Assembly (NCBI GenBank): GCA_964201585.1
Contig: CAXNDX010000001.1
Location: 1 to 34,723 of the forward strand
From: Candidatus Woesearchaeota archaeon
Lineage (GTDB): Archaea; Nanobdellota; Nanobdellia; Woesearchaeales; GW2011-AR9
DNA length: 34,723 nucleotides
Direction: 5' to 3'
A program made the translations under genes and the position numbers. This document shows, piece by piece, positions 4,670 through 25,046 of this stretch (position 1 is its first letter; the number at the start of each line of letters is the position of its first letter). Under the pieces are notes generated by a model, which saw nothing but the letters and a program-made list of their open reading frames with translations, did no database searches and was not told where the DNA came from.

Positions 4670-5461
4670 ATGACCTATTTAAAAAACACATTTTTGCCAA
4701 TGGTTCTCAGCTCAATGTATGTCTGCGCCTCTTATTCTCCTCCAATCTATGGCCAAGAAGCAGCCCCTAACGTACTTTTTCAACAAAGTAATCTTGAAAC
4801 AAAAATACTTGAAGATAAAGAAGAAAAACCACTCTCACAACCCTATCGCTTTAGTGAGCAAGACCTTAACAAATATCGGCGCTGGAAACAACAAGCAATC
4901 GACCATTCAAAAAAAACAGGAGAAGTTGTTCTTATTATTAATAAATCAACCTATGAATTAGATGTATATCAAAAAGGCCAATTTCAAAAAAAATTTCCGA
5001 TTGAATTAGGAAAAAATAATTACGATGACAAAAAAATTCAAGGAGATAATACCACTCCTGAAGGTTTTTATAAAATTAGAAAAGTCAAAGATATCAATAA
5101 TACCCATTTTTATCGCGCCGCAGAACTTGACTACCCAAACAAACAGGATATCGCAGAATTCCATAGATTAAAAAAAACAGGTGCGATTCCTAAAAATGCA
5201 ACAATTGGGGGAGATATCAATATTCACGGTAAAGGGAGTGGGATTTCTCCTCTCCAAGGTGGTTCCAATTGGACACAAGGATGTGCGGCTCTTTCTAATG
5301 AAGATATGGATGAATTATTTCAGTATCTAAAACAAGAGACTCAAGTTTTAATCATCAAATATGATAGCCCTATTATCTCAATTATTCCACCTGATAGCAA
5401 AACAGTTATAAAACATCTCAAATATCTCACTAAATCCATTGATCAATCAATTTTTAAGTAA
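4670..5461 (+). CDS. Secreted L,D-transpeptidase (YkuD/ErfK fold) protein
   Basis: Hydrophobic N-terminus. The catalytic region INIHGKGSG...GGSNWTQGCAALSNEDMDELF matches the YkuD HG...GC signature. Confidence 0.75.
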   Translation: MTYLKNTFLPMVLSSMYVCASYSPPIYGQEAAPNVLFQQSNLETKILEDKEEKPLSQPYRFSEQDLNKYRRWKQQAIDHSKKTGEVVLIINKSTYELDVYQKGQFQKKFPIELGKNNYDDKKIQGDNTTPEGFYKIRKVKDINNTHFYRAAELDYPNKQDIAEFHRLKKTGAIPKNATIGGDINIHGKGSGISPLQGGSNWTQGCAALSNEDMDELFQYLKQETQVLIIKYDSPIISIIPPDSKTVIKHLKYLTKSIDQSIFK

Positions 5462-5472
5462 AAAAATTTACC

Positions 5473-6012
5473 ATGACAACCCTCACCATCAAAAGCCACA
5501 CTTTTAAACCATTTGTCGTCAAAGACTCATTTAATCGCCGTGCTATTGGCTTCAGAAACACTATTCTCCAATCACTAGGCAAACTAGGCCTAACCGAAGA
5601 TGACATCGACGTACCAATGGAAGTCATGGCCCTCAAACGCGCTCCTGCCTCTGCGTTATGGTATCTTGGCGGCTATCGCCTCTATTACAGTTATAACGGC
5701 TCCATTAAATTCGTTGAAAACTTATACATTGTATCAAAAGTAATCGAACTTGAAGTTATATCTATTCTTAACGGCGAAAAAACCGCCGAAGACTTCATCC
5801 GCGACTTCACTGAAGATAAAGACATTGAAACCCAACGTAAACAAGCCCGCGAACTCTTAGGCGTTGAACATGGCACATTAGACTTAAACCTCATCAACCA
5901 AAAATTCAAACAACTAGCTAAACAACATCACCCTGACATGCCTGGCGGCAACCACGAAACTTTCAAAGCCATCAATCACGCCCATAAGACATTGAAGAGG
6001 GAGTTAGAATAA
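5473..6012 (+). CDS. J-domain (DnaJ-like) protein
   Basis: C-terminal J domain with an HPD motif: INQKFKQLAKQHHPDMPGGNHETFKAINHAHKTL. Confidence 0.8.
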   Translation: MTTLTIKSHTFKPFVVKDSFNRRAIGFRNTILQSLGKLGLTEDDIDVPMEVMALKRAPASALWYLGGYRLYYSYNGSIKFVENLYIVSKVIELEVISILNGEKTAEDFIRDFTEDKDIETQRKQARELLGVEHGTLDLNLINQKFKQLAKQHHPDMPGGNHETFKAINHAHKTLKRELE

Positions 6013-20351: not shown

Positions 20352-21191
20352 TTACAGATTAGCCTCTTCTTTGACAGACAACGCTTCTCGCTCGCTTTGT
20401 GCTAACAAGTCATCTTTTGTCTCTTCAGTGATGTATGCCGCATCCATTGCCACAGCTTTAGCTTCTTTGAATGCTTTCTGTAATAATACGTCTGATGTGT
20501 CTTTGCATGCATATGCCATTTCAACTGCTAAATTCATAGCCCATTGTGCCGCCTGCGTTACATTTCGTGCAAACTCAGCTTCATCAATATGCAAATGCCT
20601 GGAATCAAAAATAAATCCATCTTCCCAGACAGCCACTAAATCTAATCCAATCTCCATTGGCTTGATATCTAAACGCTTTAACACTTCTGCAAGCTTTGCT
20701 GAAATCACTTGGCCTTCCTTTGCCACTGTCGTATCAGTCATGATTGCAAGCTTACCTGCTTCTACTTTCGTCTTGATACCAACCGCTGCTAACTCTGAAA
20801 TGATTGGTCCAGGTGCAAAACTCGTTGGCCCTGCTTTAACAATAATCTCTCGTGGTGCAATTTGACCACCCTTAGCTGGCGCTTCCGATTTATTTTTTTG
20901 AATCGTCGCATATAACGAAAATGGATTATCTTTACTTAAGATAATTGCCGGCATTCCTTTGATACGCTCCCGCAACTGTTGAATATTTGGTTTATTTGAC
21001 TCATCTAACGCTCGTTGTAACAACTTCTTACGAGCCATGCGAATTTTCACACCACGCTTCGCAAGCGTTGAACGCATTACTTGATACTGCTGTGCAGGTA
21101 ATCTCTCTAAATTAACAATTCCAACGATAGGATACTCTTTAATCTCAGCAGTTAGCTGCTGTACTAGTTTCTTTTTTGCCTCGCTCACCAT
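20352..21191 (-). CDS. rplP0: 50S ribosomal protein L10 (P0), archaeal type
   Basis: 279 aa with a P0-type N-terminal domain ([21 protein letters not shown]). Sits between L1 and L12. Confidence 0.9.
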
Positions 21192-21193
21192 TG

Positions 21194-21835
21194 TTAGATC
21201 CTCACCGGCTTGCTCATCGTTAACTTGAGCTGCACATTTTTAATATTCTGCGCTTCACTTGGCAATTGTTTTACTGCCGTTTGATAGACAGTTAAAATAT
21301 TATCAATAATTTCTTCATCAGGTTGACTTTGTTTACCAATCATACACTGCAAATTCATCCCCTTCTTTGCGACTAAGCGAACCGATAAATTTAATCTCTT
21401 CACTAACACTTCCATGTTCGCATTTGGTGGTACAACACACCCTAACTTTGGGTTTGGCATCTTACCTTTCGTACCTAAAATCTTACCAAACGATGCCGCA
21501 ACTTTCGCCATCAATGTTGACTGCGCCACAAAATAATCATACTCTTCTGCTAACTTCTTGGACAGCTTTTTATCCATTGCATACTTTTGAAAATCAGATT
21601 CTCTAATAACAAGATCGCAGCATTTCACCGCTGAATCATATAACTGCTGATCAACAAACGCTGCAATTTTTAATTTTGTTCCTTTCGGATAATGTAACGT
21701 TGCAAAGAAATCTAACGGTGTCTGCTTAATAACCAGATTCTTCAGATTAAATATTAAATCATACGACTGAGAAAAATTTCTCTTCGGATTCTTCTTCAAC
21801 TCTTCAACTGCTTTTTGCACTTCTGCTTTATCCAT
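21194..21835 (-). CDS. rpl1: 50S ribosomal protein L1
   Basis: NFSQSYDLIFNLKNL...AAFVDQ...ILGTKGKMPNPKLG. GGAGG lies 7 nt upstream of the ATG. Confidence 0.9.
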   Translation of the reverse strand: MDKAEVQKAVEELKKNPKRNFSQSYDLIFNLKNLVIKQTPLDFFATLHYPKGTKLKIAAFVDQQLYDSAVKCCDLVIRESDFQKYAMDKKLSKKLAEEYDYFVAQSTLMAKVAASFGKILGTKGKMPNPKLGCVVPPNANMEVLVKRLNLSVRLVAKKGMNLQCMIGKQSQPDEEIIDNILTVYQTAVKQLPSEAQNIKNVQLKLTMSKPVRI

Positions 21836-21905
21836 TTAGTAGCCTCCTACAGCGCTGTGTAACACAGATGTAGTATTAACGGTTATGCTAATAGAATGCA
21901 CCTTA

Positions 21906-21913
21906 TTTATAAA
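21906..21913 (-). promoter_or_regulatory. TATA box of the rpl1-rplP0-rpl12 operon
   Basis: TTTATAAA lies about 74 nt upstream of the rpl1 ATG. This predicts a ~48-nt leader containing the hairpin ctgtg-tta-cacag and GGAGG. Confidence 0.45.
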
Positions 21914-22209
21914 GATTGCGGTAGTGGATTTCTACTTCCCTCTGCAACTATACAGCGCAGAACGTTTTGGCAATTTTCCAGCGTCATAATTCAATTTGTG
22001 TTCCGCATATCCCTTCCCTAAATCTGCTTTCTCCATAATCAAATCAAGCCCTGCACGTTTTTCTTTTTTGTCCTCTTTGCATCTGAGAAATCGCATCTCC
22101 ACTCGTATATATTAACAACGCACTTAATCCTTTGTACATAATTCTCACTCCTCCATTAATTATCACAGAACAGAAGTTGTTTATATAGCTAATGTGTGAA
22201 ATATTCAAA

Positions 22210-22372
22210 TATTATTATACGCATTTGCTTATTAGTATATTAAACTCAAATGTTTAATATAAGATCACTGCACCTAATTAGATATAAATGTGCAGTTATC
22301 TGTAACTGTGAACAAATGTTCGAAAATAATTCCCAGTTACTATAACTCTTACGCCTCCTAGTGATTTTTTTT
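22210..22372 (+). ncRNA. Candidate small RNA: TATA box, three hairpins, CCUCC tail, T8
   Basis: TTTATATA (22180-22187) predicts a start near 22210. Hairpins are at 22235-22258, 22267-22296 and 22302-22340. Then comes acgCCTCCtagtga and TTTTTTTT at 22365-22372. Confidence 0.3.
22296..22346. repeat. 51-nt hairpin element, copy A (conserved loop ACAAATGTTCGAAA)
   Basis: ttatctGTAACTGtgaACAAATGTTCGAAAaTAATtccCAGTTACtataac. A paralog is at 23560-23610. Confidence 0.6.
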
Positions 22373-22416
22373 ATGTCTAAACCTTAATAAACCCCAACAA
22401 CAATACTGCCCAAGCC

Positions 22417-23088
22417 ATGAATACTCCCCCACCCATTACCACAAAAGAAGTCTATCAATGGATCTTTGACACTTCCTTGCACGTCATGCACATCGAATAC
22501 TTTCTCAATCAGCTGCAAGTCGGTAAAAACGATCCGCAGCGTCCACATGACATCATCGGCCCAGGCAATAAATTCGAATGGGGTGTCATCCAAGGCCTCG
22601 CCTCACAATATCTTCCCAAAGGCGAAACCCGCTATCTCCCTCAAATAAAAGCCTCGTTAGATCTTCATCGCAGGCAATATCATCATCAGCAATGGAATTT
22701 TCAAAGTGAGACTGCAACTGATGACAGCCTCAAACTTGGCGCCGTTGATACCATCTGTTCCTTACTCGAAAACCGTCCCTACCAAGGCGGCAAGCATACA
22801 TATAGCGAAATTTATTACATCACCAGTAAAAATTCTGATTCCAAATTTTTCACACTTGGCAACATTCAAAAAGAAATGCAAAAAATCAAACAACCCTCAC
22901 TTGGCCGCCTCCTCTCCCTACGCGAATTTCCAAATATTGGTATTCCTGCCGAATCATACGACCTCCTCACCACGAGAATCCAAGAAACCCTCACACACCT
23001 CAACCAAGAACATAATCTAGATATAATCAAATGTGATCCGTACTTTCAACGTCCTTCATCAAGCCCTGCCATCTTAGGCTGTCAATAG
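22417..23088 (+). CDS. Hypothetical His-rich helical protein (HD-like / DUF5662-like?)
   Basis: HVMHIEYF, RPHDIIGPG, LDLHRRQYHHQQW, AVDTICS. The pattern only loosely recalls HD-type metal sites. Confidence 0.5.
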   Translation: MNTPPPITTKEVYQWIFDTSLHVMHIEYFLNQLQVGKNDPQRPHDIIGPGNKFEWGVIQGLASQYLPKGETRYLPQIKASLDLHRRQYHHQQWNFQSETATDDSLKLGAVDTICSLLENRPYQGGKHTYSEIYYITSKNSDSKFFTLGNIQKEMQKIKQPSLGRLLSLREFPNIGIPAESYDLLTTRIQETLTHLNQEHNLDIIKCDPYFQRPSSSPAILGCQ

Positions 23089-23091
23089 CAA

Positions 23092-23499
23092 TCACACTTC
23101 AGCTCTTTTTGTCCGTATTGGTCCTTTCTTTCTCTTAACTGGTTTATTTACACTTCCCACTTCTTTTCCACTCTCTACTTTTGATTCTTGCGTTACATCT
23201 TCCTCAACCTTCGGCCTTGGATTCTTCATCTCCTCAACCGTACGTTTAAACGCCTCTACTTGCTTCTCAGACAGCGAACCAAAACGAATACACGCCTCTT
23301 TAATATTTCGTAAAAAATAAGACTGCGCATAAAACTCTTTGGGAATATCAAACATCTTCTTATACTCTGGATTCTCAATCTCCTGATCCAACTGCTTCAT
23401 CTGACACGCTAAACAAATCGGATACTGCTTGCGCGAAAACATCTGCACCATATTTTTCTTACACTGCGCACATCTCTGTTGATATTTTGCAACTGCCAT
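23092..23499 (-). CDS. Zinc-ribbon protein with a basic C-terminal tail
   Basis: The first ATG gives MAVAKYQQRCAQCKK...YPICLACQ (CxxC...CxxC). The track start at 23547 is TTG and would run through an intergenic hairpin. Confidence 0.55.
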   Translation of the reverse strand: MAVAKYQQRCAQCKKNMVQMFSRKQYPICLACQMKQLDQEIENPEYKKMFDIPKEFYAQSYFLRNIKEACIRFGSLSEKQVEAFKRTVEEMKNPRPKVEEDVTQESKVESGKEVGSVNKPVKRKKGPIRTKRAEV

Positions 23500-23559
23500 A
23501 ATATTATTCTCCAATATAATAAATATCCATAGATTTTGAACAAACAATTGGATATTTAC

Positions 23560-23610
23560 TTATTAGTAGAAATCCACAAATGTTCGAAAGTAATGGATTT
23601 CTACTATAAT
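23560..23610. repeat. 51-nt hairpin element, copy B (13-bp perfect stem, conserved loop)
   Basis: ttatTAGTAGAAATCCAcaaatgttcgaaagtaaTGGATTTCTACTAtaat. Identical to copy A at 34 of 51 positions, with differences confined to paired arms. Confidence 0.6.
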
Positions 23611-23774
23611 TTATCTTTTATTTATTTTTAAATAAAAAAATATTTTTTCTTCAACTTTCACCACTTCTCAAAACACAATTCGCACTTTTCTTTAAATATC
23701 TTTTCGTACCATCATAAAGTACTCCCAACCTCAAAATAGAAACCTATTTAAACACCAACAAAATCTCTTTTAAC

Positions 23775-23913
23775 AGGGGGAAGTGGTAGCGAGAAAAAAG
23801 CAAACGTATAATGGCGAACAAAGATAAGTAAACAATAATTCGTCGCCATTATATTCTGAGGAACGCAGCAAATGCGGTCAATTATTTGCGTTCCTCATTA
23901 TGCGTTGTTTTTT
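23775..23913 (+). ncRNA. Candidate structured leader or small RNA upstream of the 23960 gene
   Basis: TATTTAAA (23745-23752) predicts a start near 23775. Two 11-bp hairpins follow (23807-23853 and 23857-23897), then T6 at 23908-23913. Confidence 0.3.
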
Positions 23914-23959
23914 GTCTCCAAATATTTTTTAGCACAACAATGGAGAGGTAGTCATAGCT

Positions 23960-24412
23960 ATGCAACACGAAATAGAAAACATCAACCAAGCTCTCGAAGA
24001 ACATCTCAGCTCTATCAACGACAACTCTTTAGAAATCCAATCGTTGTTTGACTATATGCGTGAAATCGAAGTCAAGATGGATAAAATTTCTCAGCGTCTC
24101 GACCAGCTCCAATTATCCTCCGATAAAATTCCTCAAAAACACACCGTCACACCATTAGACAAAACTGAAATGCGCGTATTCCTTACATTCTACACCGAAG
24201 AACATCCTTTAACATTTCAAGAAATCGCCAAGAAAGTCAATTTACCTTATACCATGATCCCAGATTGTTTATCCGCTCTAACCCAAAAAGGTATCCCACT
24301 GCAGCGCTCCTACTTCAAAAACCAACTCTTCATTAAACTTGATCCACAGTTTAAAGAGATGCAAGCCAAAGAGAATATTGTAAATCTGTCTTTGAGTTCT
24401 TTTATGGAATAG
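23960..24412 (+). CDS. Coiled-coil + winged-helix protein (putative transcriptional regulator)
   Basis: The N-terminal half is heptad-like. The C-terminal part, EHPLTFQEIAKKVNLPYTMIPDCLSALTQKGI, reads as a wHTH. GGAGAGG lies 12 nt upstream. Confidence 0.6.
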   Translation: MQHEIENINQALEEHLSSINDNSLEIQSLFDYMREIEVKMDKISQRLDQLQLSSDKIPQKHTVTPLDKTEMRVFLTFYTEEHPLTFQEIAKKVNLPYTMIPDCLSALTQKGIPLQRSYFKNQLFIKLDPQFKEMQAKENIVNLSLSSFME

Positions 24413-24458
24413 ATACTTTTTTTTTAACTACAAAAATAATTCTTAAAACTTTCAAACC

Positions 24459-25046
24459 CTAATTTTTCGCGTTCACCGTTAAATGCACAACTAACCCGCC
24501 TTCTCCCGACTTAAAGTACTGTACTTTATCTACATACGTATGCATAAATGACGTCCCTGTACCATTATTCGTACCCGGTTTTGGCGTATTCGTAAACTCA
24601 TAGAAATCTAACATTCGCTCTCGATGCTTTCCTTCTTTATGCCGTAACACAAACGGAATAAAATCCGCATTAAGAATCCCTCCCTGGTCAATTACTGAAA
24701 TTTCAAGCGTATCTTCTGCAATTTTATACGTCAACGTTATTTTTTTTGCAGGATCCAGTTTATTACCATGCTGGTGTGCATTCAATACCGCTTCATATAA
24801 CGCCGTAAAAAAATTAGGATTATATCCTTGATTTTCCGCCTCTCGCCCAATAGGTCCAATAATTTCTCTAATTTGCCCCGCATATTCTTTTCGATTTGTA
24901 CTTAAACAAAACTCTTTGATAATATAACTTGGCTTAATTTCATACGTAGGAATCTCAAAATTTCGTAAATCGACTGTTCCTTGACGTCGAAAATGCTCCC
25001 GAAGAACTGAATCTAAACTATCAACATCAAAAATATCTAGTGCCAT
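24459..25046 (-). CDS. HATPase_c-type protein resembling anti-sigma serine kinases (RsbW/SpoIIAB family)
   Basis: N box: ALYEAVLNAHQHGN. G1: ISVIDQGGI. G2: NNGTGTSFM. It is short (195 aa) and single-domain. TTTATAAA at 25068-25075 is centred 25.5 nt upstream of the ATG. Confidence 0.6.
   Translation of the reverse strand: MALDIFDVDSLDSVLREHFRRQGTVDLRNFEIPTYEIKPSYIIKEFCLSTNRKEYAGQIREIIGPIGREAENQGYNPNFFTALYEAVLNAHQHGNKLDPAKKITLTYKIAEDTLEISVIDQGGILNADFIPFVLRHKEGKHRERMLDFYEFTNTPKPGTNNGTGTSFMHTYVDKVQYFKSGEGGLVVHLTVNAKN

What the first reader, a model, noticed from the sequence alone, without database searches (positions are those of the whole stretch)
22296..23610. Two 51-nt intergenic hairpin paralogs with an invariant loop and six compensatory base-pair swaps
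Element A (22296-22346) and element B (23560-23610) align without gaps and are identical at 34 of 51 positions. The invariant parts are the flanks (TTAT..GTA and TACTATAA) and the loop core ACAAATGTTCGAAA.TAAT. The differences lie in the stem arms. At six pairs both partners changed so that pairing is kept: a:t to g:c, c:g to a:t, t:a to a:t, g:c to a:t, g:c to c:g, a:t to c:g. This argues for selection on a hairpin (RNA, or a DNA cruciform or dimer site) rather than chance palindromes. Half of B's arm (AGTAGAAATCCAC) recurs on the - strand at 21922-21934, 8 nt upstream of the rpl1 operon TATA box. A related hairpin (aaatatcca...tggatattt, 23521-23557) has the loop TTTGTTCAAAA on the - strand.
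Basis: seen in the sequence. Interest (0 to 1): 0.6.

Follow-up and report, generated by a model that had tools for sequence, protein, structure and literature searches.

The report
Twin-hairpin miniature transposon copies (archaeal MITE)
The two look-alike hairpins are the end modules of two copies of a small, gene-less jumping DNA element (a MITE that duplicates a TA on insertion) scattered through this Woesearchaeota-type archaeal genome and some relatives; it is a new family of a familiar kind of selfish DNA, not a new RNA gene or regulator site.

Summary
A (22296-22346) and B (23560-23610) are hairpins identical at 34 of 51 positions, with six pairs changed on both sides.

They are not isolated paralogs. 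Each is the right-hand unit of a non-coding mobile element:
- an A-type copy of 157 bp (22186-22342);
- a B-type twin hairpin of 90 bp (23517-23606).

A covariance model finds 10 units in this 0.99-Mb MAG. In relatives it finds 0 to 32 per genome, patchily, and only within one order.

Mobility is shown in four ways:
- conservation stops sharply at ...CTA|TA;
- an empty site differs from a filled one by the element plus one TA;
- one copy lies inside another repeat and is flanked by a duplicated CA;
- the B-type copy is absent from the syntenic locus of the closest relative.

The TA duplication and the TAGTAA termini point to IS630/Tc1-mariner-type transposition. A 1.06-kb IS630-family element of Woesearchaeota has end repeats that resemble the units. 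The resemblance is strong for sister subfamilies, moderate for A and absent for B. No transposase of this type was found in this genome.

Stem covariation is very strong, but G·U is not favoured over A·C, which suggests a DNA-level palindrome. Why each end folds back on itself is unresolved. Verdict: a new member of a known kind; modest interest.

The parts
22184..22185 (.). Left copy of the duplicated TA target of the A-type element
   Evidence: Conservation among the four A-type copies starts at TATAGC.
22186..22342 (+). A-type element, 157 bp, TAG...CTA. It has a left hairpin unit, about 70 bp of extra internal hairpin modules, and a right hairpin unit.
   Evidence: Four copies at 94-99% identity over 161-172 bp, with sharp borders and different neighbouring genes: C1, C7, C12, C22. 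Coordinates.
22186..22228 (-). Left (partly decayed) hairpin unit of the A-type element, inverted relative to unit A
   Evidence: It corresponds to the left unit TATAGCAAATGTGTG..CACACATTTGC of the canonical twin elements in relatives.
22296..22346 (+).
   Evidence: R1 covariance-model hit of 72.1 bits; fold.
23515..23516 (.). Left copy of the duplicated TA of the B-type element
23517..23606 (+). B-type twin-hairpin element, 90 bp. It begins 18 nt upstream of the ATG (23497-23499) of the - strand 136-aa zinc-ribbon-like gene.
   Evidence: A second copy lies at C44:~463-560, 93% identical over 104 bp. The element is absent from the syntenic locus G001:C18.
23513..23565 (-).
   Evidence: R1 hit of 56.2 bits on the - strand; fold.
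23560..23610 (+).
   Evidence: R1 hit of 74.4 bits; fold.
21924..21936 (-). 13-nt match to one arm of B. It is not part of a recognisable unit and is probably chance or a very old relic.
   Evidence: There is no R1 hit here, and the region is conserved in G001.

Best explanation
A and B are end modules of two copies of a miniature inverted-repeat transposable element (MITE) family. The family is confined to one order of Woesearchaeota-type (DPANN) archaea.

The basic element is about 90-95 bp. It has two roughly 45-bp hairpin units placed head to head in inverted orientation, with termini 5'-TAG...CTA-3'. It inserts at TA and duplicates it. The A-type copy is the same element with extra internal hairpin modules.

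Read from either outer end inward, a unit has three parts: a conserved terminus (TAGTAA/TAGCTAA), about 8 variable bases, and then the conserved 'loop' (...ATTTTCGAACATTT...). An inverted copy of the terminal ~11 nt follows.

Most likely mechanism (inferred): cut-and-paste mobilisation in trans by an IS630/Tc1-mariner-family DDE transposase. Its N-terminal helix-turn-helix domain would bind the end repeat as double-stranded DNA, including the 'loop' sequence. It would cleave next to the TA. This would explain why loop and terminus are conserved while the bases between them vary.

The perfect intrastrand pairing of each unit is a DNA-level palindrome. It is kept either by selection on a DNA hairpin or cruciform, or by template-switch correction of quasi-palindromes.

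Shown: family membership, sharp borders, TA (once CA) duplication, empty and filled sites, nested insertions, patchy copy number, and covariation. Inferred: the transposase family, what the loop is for, and why the stems pair.
For: 1. Copies. The loop motif and covariance model R1 find 10 strong units in the 988-kb genome, with three stem types. All lie between unrelated genes, including between convergent gene ends.

2. Borders. A-type copies share 161-172 bp and B-type copies 104 bp, with abrupt loss of similarity outside TATAG...CTATA. Across 66 units the bases after ...ACTA are TA in 62, and composition is random after that.

3. Empty site. G001:C10 reads GGTTTA[TAGTAAATG...CAGTTACTA]TAATTCTTG, where this genome (C51) reads GGTTTAATTTTTGG.

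4. Nested insertion with a non-TA duplication. Inside repeat X (GCACCGA(C/T)AGGTGC in this genome), G001:C8 reads GCACCGACA[TAGCAAATG...GTTACTA]CAGGTGC. G003:C38 has one twin element inserted at the TA in the central linker of another.

5. The B-type element is missing from the otherwise 81-88% identical syntenic locus G001:C18.

6. Patchy copy number. Counts are 8, 4 and 32 in the three congeneric genomes and 0 in most genera of the family. Many hits lie at contig starts. 13 of 41 relatives have hits. In the phylum scan 12 of 301 genomes have hits, all within the same order.

7. IS630 link.
- 59 metagenome and 9 genome loci define a 1062-1075-bp IS630-family IS of Woesearchaeota. Its ends are TA|TAGTAAGTGACATAAGTTTTTAGACAG and TA|TAGCTAGTGACATAAATATTTATACAAATC.
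- Beyond TATAG, units in G024 and G039 are 18-19/27 identical to these ends (p<0.001), and unit A is 14/27 (p about 0.02).
- Sister hairpin units in this genome (C36, C4, C6, C16:8194) are 22-25/30 identical to the IS end repeat.
- Fragments of this IS sit at contig ends in the congeneric genome G002.

8. For the IS630-family element ISY100, the transposase footprints the whole 24-bp end repeat, inserts at TA and duplicates it. 30 bp from each end suffice for transposition (PMC2170065).
Against: - No IS630-type transposase was found in this genome (77% complete) or in G001 and G003, although G003 has 32 units.
- None of the IS copies examined carries a hairpin unit at its ends.
- Unit B alone is not significantly similar to the IS end repeat (10/27). 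The link for B therefore runs only through its shared loop and termini with the other units.
- Co-occurrence of the IS and the MITE family is weak. DDE_3 is present in 3 of 13 MITE-positive relatives (4 counting the G002 fragments) and in 2 of 28 negative ones.
- Known Tc1/mariner/IS630 chemistry does not need end hairpins, so the near-perfect covarying stems are not explained by this mechanism.
Confidence: 0.88

Rival explanations
1. REP/REPIN-like elements mobilised as single-stranded hairpins by a Y1 (HUH) RAYT/IS200-type transposase. The twin inverted hairpins would be the REPIN doublet, and the loop or foot the recognition site.
For: The elements are inverted hairpin doublets with conserved loops and covarying stems, and B has GTAG...CTAC at the stem foot. 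Y1_Tnp genes exist in this genome (C37:7633-7977) and in 13 of 41 relatives.
Against: - Insertions carry a 2-bp target duplication, TA and once CA. By my knowledge of the families, Y1/HUH elements (IS200/IS605, REPINs) do not make one.
- The termini resemble IS630-family end repeats.
- No R1 unit lies near the Y1 gene of this genome.
- G003 (32 units, 96% complete) and G001 have no Y1_Tnp.
- Y1 is present in 6 of 13 MITE-positive and 7 of 28 negative genomes, so there is no association.
Confidence: 0.05
2. A family of small structured RNA genes or cis-regulatory RNA hairpins. A companion first-reader note reads 22180-22372 as a promoter-to-oligo-T sRNA unit. On this view the loop is the functional site and the stems are kept by RNA-level selection.
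For: Covariation is strong and the predicted hairpins are stable. A TATA-like TTTATATA lies at the left junction of the A-type copy and a T-run about 15 nt beyond its right end.
Against: - There is no Rfam match.
- Copies lie in both orientations relative to neighbouring genes and also between convergent genes.
- The TATA-like sequence and the T-run lie at or outside the repeat border and are not shared by the other copies.
- Presence or absence varies between close relatives, with target duplication.
- G·U is not enriched over A·C among non-Watson-Crick cells: 9 against 8.
- The hairpin folds equally on both strands.
Confidence: 0.04
3. Palindromic operator sites for a local dimeric transcription factor (TrmB-like, Lrp-like).
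For: The elements are palindromic, intergenic and close to promoters. A TrmB-family gene lies at 23960-24412.
Against: The half-sites (stems) differ completely between copies while the spacer is conserved, which is the reverse of an operator. Copies lie next to unrelated genes on many contigs and are mobile.
Confidence: 0.02

Closest known systems
TA-duplicating bacterial MITEs tied to IS630: RUP of Streptococcus pneumoniae (thought to be moved by IS630-Spn1) and MITEEc1/ERIC-type elements (my own knowledge; MITEEc1_IS630 is named in PMC11602168)
   Same: Both are about 100 bp, non-coding, intergenic and multi-copy. Both have inverted ends and a TA target duplication, and both are presumed to be moved in trans by an IS630-family transposase.
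   Different: Those elements fold as one long hairpin, with the left end pairing with the right end. Here each end folds back on itself, giving two hairpins with different stems. There is no sequence relationship, and the host is an archaeon.
Correia / NEMIS repeat-enclosed elements of Neisseria (my own knowledge)
   Same: Both are 100-150 bp, have a TA duplication and termini beginning TATAG, lie next to promoters, and can create promoter-like junctions.
   Different: Correia ends are 26-bp plain inverted repeats with an IHF site. Their transposase is unknown. They occur in a bacterial genus only, and they have no twin-hairpin unit structure.
Sulfolobus MITE SM1 with the IS630-family ISC1048 (my own knowledge of Redder et al. 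2001; not re-read here)
   Same: It is an archaeal MITE paired with an IS630-family IS.
   Different: SM1 is a plain internal-deletion derivative of its IS. The present family shares only the first ~30 nt of the IS end and has acquired an inverted copy of the terminus.
REP / BIME / REPIN elements with RAYT transposases (Bacteria)
   Same: Both are doublets of inverted imperfect palindromes that spread as a unit. In both, stems vary between families and pairing is kept.
   Different: REPINs leave no target duplication and are moved by a Y1 HUH enzyme. Here a 2-bp duplication is present and the termini look like IS630 end repeats.
ISY100 (IS630 family, Synechocystis), biochemically characterised (PMC2170065)
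   Same: It inserts at TA and duplicates it. Its transposase footprints the whole ~24-bp end repeat, and 30 bp from each end suffice for transposition. This is the mechanistic model proposed here.
   Different: It is an autonomous 947-bp element with no fold-back ends. It is a different lineage of the family.

Membership tests
MITE (miniature inverted-repeat transposable element) | Short (under about 300 bp), no coding capacity | tested here: met
   The elements are 90 bp and 157 bp. No ORF of 40 aa or more lies inside the A-type element (22186-22342). The only listed ORFs that touch the B-type element (23517-23606) are upstream TTG extensions (to 23547 and 23543) of frames that begin in the neighbouring - strand gene, whose real start is the ATG at 23497-23499.
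MITE (miniature inverted-repeat transposable element) | Terminal inverted repeats | tested here: met
   The outer 32 nt of the two ends are 18/32 (A-type) and 19/32 (B-type) identical as inverted repeats. The termini are TAG(C)TAA / TAGTAA.
MITE (miniature inverted-repeat transposable element) | Target-site duplication, shown by empty against filled sites | tested here: met
   TA flanks 62 of 66 units. There is an empty site at own C51 against a filled one at G001:C10, and a nested copy is flanked by CA...CA.
MITE (miniature inverted-repeat transposable element) | Multiple dispersed copies with unrelated flanks; copy number varies among relatives | tested here: met
MITE (miniature inverted-repeat transposable element) | A related autonomous element with matching end repeats | tested here: inconclusive
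   The IS630-family IS ends match sister subfamilies at 73-83% and the G024/G039 units at 18-19/27. They match unit A at only 14/27 and unit B at 10/27.
IS630/Tc1-mariner-mobilised element | Insertion at TA with a 2-bp duplication | tested here: met
IS630/Tc1-mariner-mobilised element | Cognate DDE_3 transposase present in the same genome | tested here: not met
   There is no PF13358 or tblastn hit in G000 (77% complete), and none in G001 or G003. Only fragments occur, in congeneric G002.
IS630/Tc1-mariner-mobilised element | Transposase binds and cleaves the ends | not testable with these tools
   This needs EMSA or an in vitro transposition assay.
REP/REPIN-RAYT | No target duplication; insertion by a single-strand HUH mechanism | tested here: not met
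   A 2-bp duplication is present.
REP/REPIN-RAYT | A RAYT (Y1_Tnp) gene flanked by the repeats and co-distributed with them | tested here: not met
   The Y1 gene at own C37 has no R1 unit nearby. G003, with 32 units, has no Y1.
Structured non-coding RNA family | Match to a curated RNA family | tested here: not met
   There are 0 Rfam matches in the window.
Structured non-coding RNA family | Covariation of RNA type (G·U tolerated), one functional strand, conserved genomic context | tested here: not met
   Covariation is strong, but G·U (9) is about equal to A·C (8). The unit folds on both strands, and its genomic context is not conserved.

The most novel reading that the evidence does not exclude
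The fold-back of each transposon end is a functional requirement and not a mutational by-product. This fold-back is the terminal ~11 nt paired with an inverted internal copy, kept through dozens of independent double substitutions. Two readings fit. (a) An IS630/Tc1-mariner-type transposase, or an unknown enzyme, in these archaea acts on extruded DNA hairpins or cruciforms. That would be a structure-dependent variant of TA-targeted transposition not described for this superfamily. (b) The units have been co-opted by the host, for example as portable TATA-bearing promoter or insulator modules. The B-type copy places its TATTTATTA|TA end 14-24 nt upstream of a start codon, where the relative without the element has its own TATA-like sequence.
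Probability: 0.12. Interest if true: 0.6.

Novelty: new member of a known kind. Interest (0 to 1): 0.3.

Why it matters
This result removes a false lead. The hairpins are selfish DNA and not a new regulatory RNA. The same applies to the companion reading of 22180-22372 as an sRNA gene.

It also gives a usable description of a MITE family in tiny DPANN genomes: exact borders, a TA duplication, a covariance model and a candidate IS630-family partner with defined 30-nt end repeats. Earlier notes of this scan had not found a candidate enzyme for this kind of element.

Such elements break MAG assemblies, sit within a few bases of promoters in very compact genomes, and mimic RNA covariation. They therefore need to be masked before RNA-motif or operator discovery. 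The self-pairing ends are a small open question in transposon biology.

Tried and rejected
- Rfam scan and tRNA scan of the window found nothing.
- Loop-motif matches in the window with 3 mismatches are at chance level and lack hairpin context.
- Split-tRNA or T-loop, integron attC and origin-box ideas were considered from the sequence and dropped. The units lack those signatures and are mobile with a TA duplication.
- Paralogous-promoter idea was rejected because neighbouring genes differ at every copy.
- Direct parent IS:
  - the IS630-type genes in G024, G039, G020 and G025 have no R1 unit at their ends;
  - neither do 9 genome loci and 59 metagenome loci of the Woesearchaeota IS630 lineage;
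  - no transposase of that lineage is in this genome.
- The DDE_Tnp_1 and Y1_Tnp pair on own contig C37 has unrelated ends.
- The RAYT hypothesis is not supported by distribution or by the target duplication.
- The site next to the TrmB-like gene in G003:C35 also carries a B-type element, but its flanks are too diverged to tell shared ancestry from independent insertion.
- The A-type site in G001 is rearranged, with an extra ORF-like 600 nt, so it gives no clean empty site.

Full report
**Observation**

Element A (22296-22346) and element B (23560-23610) are as described. They align without gaps and are identical at 34 of 51 positions. Of the 12 stem pairs, six are changed on both sides with pairing kept.
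- Each folds into a 11-13-bp hairpin on either strand, with z = -3.8 to -5.0 against dinucleotide shuffles.
- The hairpin at 23521-23557 is also real.
- The 13-mer near rpl1 is at 21924-21936, not 21922-21934. No unit is recognisable there. It lies in promoter-upstream DNA that is 80% conserved in the closest relative, so I treat it as chance or a very old relic.
- There is no Rfam family and no tRNA in the window.

**More copies and true extent**

The window is contig C1 of a 988-kb, 100-contig, 38% G+C MAG. Related records are titled "Candidatus Woesearchaeota archaeon", from groundwater.

The loop motif finds seven hairpins genome-wide, with three stem types. Covariance model R1, built from nine units, finds ten strong units.

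Flank alignment shows that A is the 3' end of a repeat with four copies (C1, C7, C12, C22). These are 94-99% identical over 161-172 bp. B is the 3' half of a repeat of about 100 bp with a second copy on C44. Both have abrupt borders at TATAG...CTATA.

Exact coordinates:

| Element | Span | Length | Flanking TA |
|---|---|---|---|
| A-type | 22186-22342 | 157 bp | 22184-5 and 22343-4 |
| B-type | 23517-23606 | 90 bp | 23515-6 and 23607-8 |

The B-type element is two hairpin units head to head in inverted orientation.

In relatives the canonical form is the same twin: TATAG-CAAATGTGTG-loop-CACACATTTGC-TTATTA-GTAACTGTGAA-CAAATGTTCGAAAATAA-TTCACAGTTAC-TATA. The A-type copy is this twin with about 70 bp of extra small hairpins between the units. 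Other variants carry other internal hairpin modules. The genes next to each copy are unrelated, and two copies lie between convergent genes.

**Mobility**

1. In 66 units the sequence after ...ACTA is TA in 62. Beyond that, base composition is random.
2. G001:C10 reads GGTTTA[TAGTAAATG...CAGTTACTA]TAATTCTTG where this genome (C51) reads GGTTTAATTTTTGG. The difference is the element plus one TA.
3. In G001:C8 an element sits inside another repeat family ("X"; own copies on C31, C28 and C26 read GCACCGA(C/T)AGGTGC). There it is flanked by CA on both sides: GCACCGACA[TAG...CTA]CAGGTGC. This shows that the 2 bp are a duplication of the target and not part of the element.
4. In G003:C38 one twin lies in the central TA of another.
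5. G001:C18 is syntenic with window 20352-25046 at 81-88% identity but lacks the B-type element.
6. Copy number is 8, 4 and 32 in the three congeneric genomes and zero in most genera of the family. Many hits lie at contig starts. 13 of 41 relatives have hits. In a sample of 301 genomes of the phylum, 12 have hits, all in the same order.

**Which enzyme**

A 2-bp TA duplication is the hallmark of IS630/Tc1-mariner elements. For ISY100 the transposase footprints the whole 24-bp end repeat, inserts at TA, and needs only 30 bp from each end (PMC2170065).

DDE_3 genes occur in 5 of 41 relatives. The partial gene in G020 led to 9 genome loci and 59 metagenome loci of one IS630-family lineage of Woesearchaeota, 1062-1075 bp long. 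Its ends are TA|TAGTAAGTGACATAAGTTTTTAGACAGATTTATA (left) and TA|TAGCTAGTGACATAAATATTTATACAAATC (right).

Units read from the outer end inward resemble these ends in register, beyond the shared TATAG:

| Unit | Identity to IS end | Shuffle p |
|---|---|---|
| G024 and G039 units | 18-19 of 27 | <0.001 |
| Unit A | 14 of 27 | about 0.02 |
| Unit B | 10 of 27 | not significant |

A sister set of hairpin units in this same genome is 22-25 of 30 identical to the IS right end. These are C36:4598, C4:1494, C6:9064 and the solo unit C16:8194, which reads TA|TAGTAAGTGAC...GCCACTTACTA|TA.

So a unit looks like the first ~30 nt of an IS630-type end followed by an inverted copy of its terminal ~11 nt. 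The "invariant flanks" are the terminus plus the TA, and the linker.

Caveats:
- No such transposase is present in this genome (77% complete), nor in G001 or G003.
- Only fragments occur at contig ends of congeneric G002.
- No IS copy carries a hairpin unit.
- Co-occurrence is weak.

**Covariation**

On 64 distinct units, 95.3% of cells pair, and 11 of 12 pairs show double changes. No shuffle and no slid register comes close.

Closely related stems differ by single, exactly compensated positions: GTAACTGTGAA, GTAATTGTGAA, GTAACGGTGAA, GTAATGGTGAA, GTAATGATGAA. Within young subfamilies, however, single changes are uncompensated, for example the T·C in A itself.

Among non-Watson-Crick cells, G·T (9) is no commoner than A·C (8). 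The hairpin is equally good on both strands. This fits a DNA palindrome better than a selected RNA helix.

Known IS630 chemistry does not require it. Two explanations remain open: selection on a DNA hairpin or cruciform, or template-switch correction of quasi-palindromes (an established mutational process; my own knowledge).

**Rivals**

- **REPIN/RAYT.** Y1_Tnp genes exist (own C37:7633-7977; 13 of 41 relatives). However, the target duplication, the absence of units around the Y1 gene, and the absence of Y1 from G003 (32 units) argue against this.
- **sRNA gene.** The TATA-like sequence and the T-run around the A-type copy lie at or outside the repeat border and are not shared by other copies.
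- **Operator.** The half-sites vary while the spacer is conserved, which is the wrong way round.

**Local consequences (inference)**

The B-type copy begins 18 nt upstream of the ATG (23497-23499) of the - strand 136-aa gene. Removing it together with one TA restores ...AAGATAAAT-TA-TTGGAG..., which matches G001's ...AAGATAAAGGGAGAG.... The element therefore landed at the edge of the TATA-like box, and its own end (TATTTATTA|TA) now occupies that position.

**Earlier notes of this scan and the literature**

Earlier notes of this scan describe the same kind of twin-hairpin TA-MITE in other DPANN windows, with no enzyme found. I reached the MITE reading independently before reading them. They lower the novelty.

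A published census already reports a high MITE density in a Woesearchaeal genome (PMC11602168).

Noticed in passing
window 23809-23900: A third twin-hairpin block of 92 bp (TAATGGCGA...TCGCCATTA plus TGAGGAACGCA...TGCGTTCCTCA) lies upstream of the TrmB-like gene. It is absent from the aligned loci of both G001 and G003. G001 reads CAAACG|TGCGTTG where the window reads CAAACG-TA-[element]-TG-CGTTG. It is a different family from A and B and has few other copies in this genome (C24, C93).
   Followed up: partly
own genome C31:12223-12326, C28:9658-9768, C26:5-109, also C47, C98, C80, C59: Another multi-copy repeat of about 105 bp ('X': TAGAGAACTTTGCAAAAAGCAATTTG...GCACCGAYAGGTGC...GCTTAAAATTGCGCCATTGCAAAG...TTAGAGAAGTTTGA), often at contig ends. 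In G001 it has been hit twice at the same central YA by the twin-hairpin element.
   Followed up: partly
own genome C36:4598-4642, C4:1494-1600, C6:9064-9111, C16:8194-8241: A sister family of hairpin units with GTGAC-type stems. The outer 30 nt are 73-83% identical to the end repeat of a Woesearchaeota IS630-family IS. C16:8194 is a solo single-hairpin element flanked by TA.
   Followed up: partly
own genome C37:6658-7977: A DDE_Tnp_1 (IS4/IS5-type, 275 aa) gene and an adjacent, oppositely oriented Y1_Tnp (IS200-like, 159 aa) gene. Their ends are unrelated to the hairpin elements.
   Followed up: partly
G001:C18 ~5096-5697 (L068), opposite window 22000-22367: Where the window has the A-type element plus about 185 nt of ORF-poor DNA, the closest relative has about 600 nt with an ORF-like stretch. 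The locus has been rearranged, so no clean empty site exists for the A-type copy.
   Followed up: no
L090 (G003:C47:~122264-122350): One unit carries a tiny twin hairpin of about 36 nt (GCTTTGCtttaGCAAAG TCACgaacggagGTGAC) inserted in its loop next to the TTCGAA core. It resembles the very small hairpin modules reported in other DPANN windows.
   Followed up: no
G003:C35:~901-998 (L047/L075): A B-type twin element lies upstream of the ortholog of the TrmB-like gene (window 23960-24412), at a similar but not clearly identical position. Shared ancestry and independent insertion could not be told apart.
   Followed up: partly
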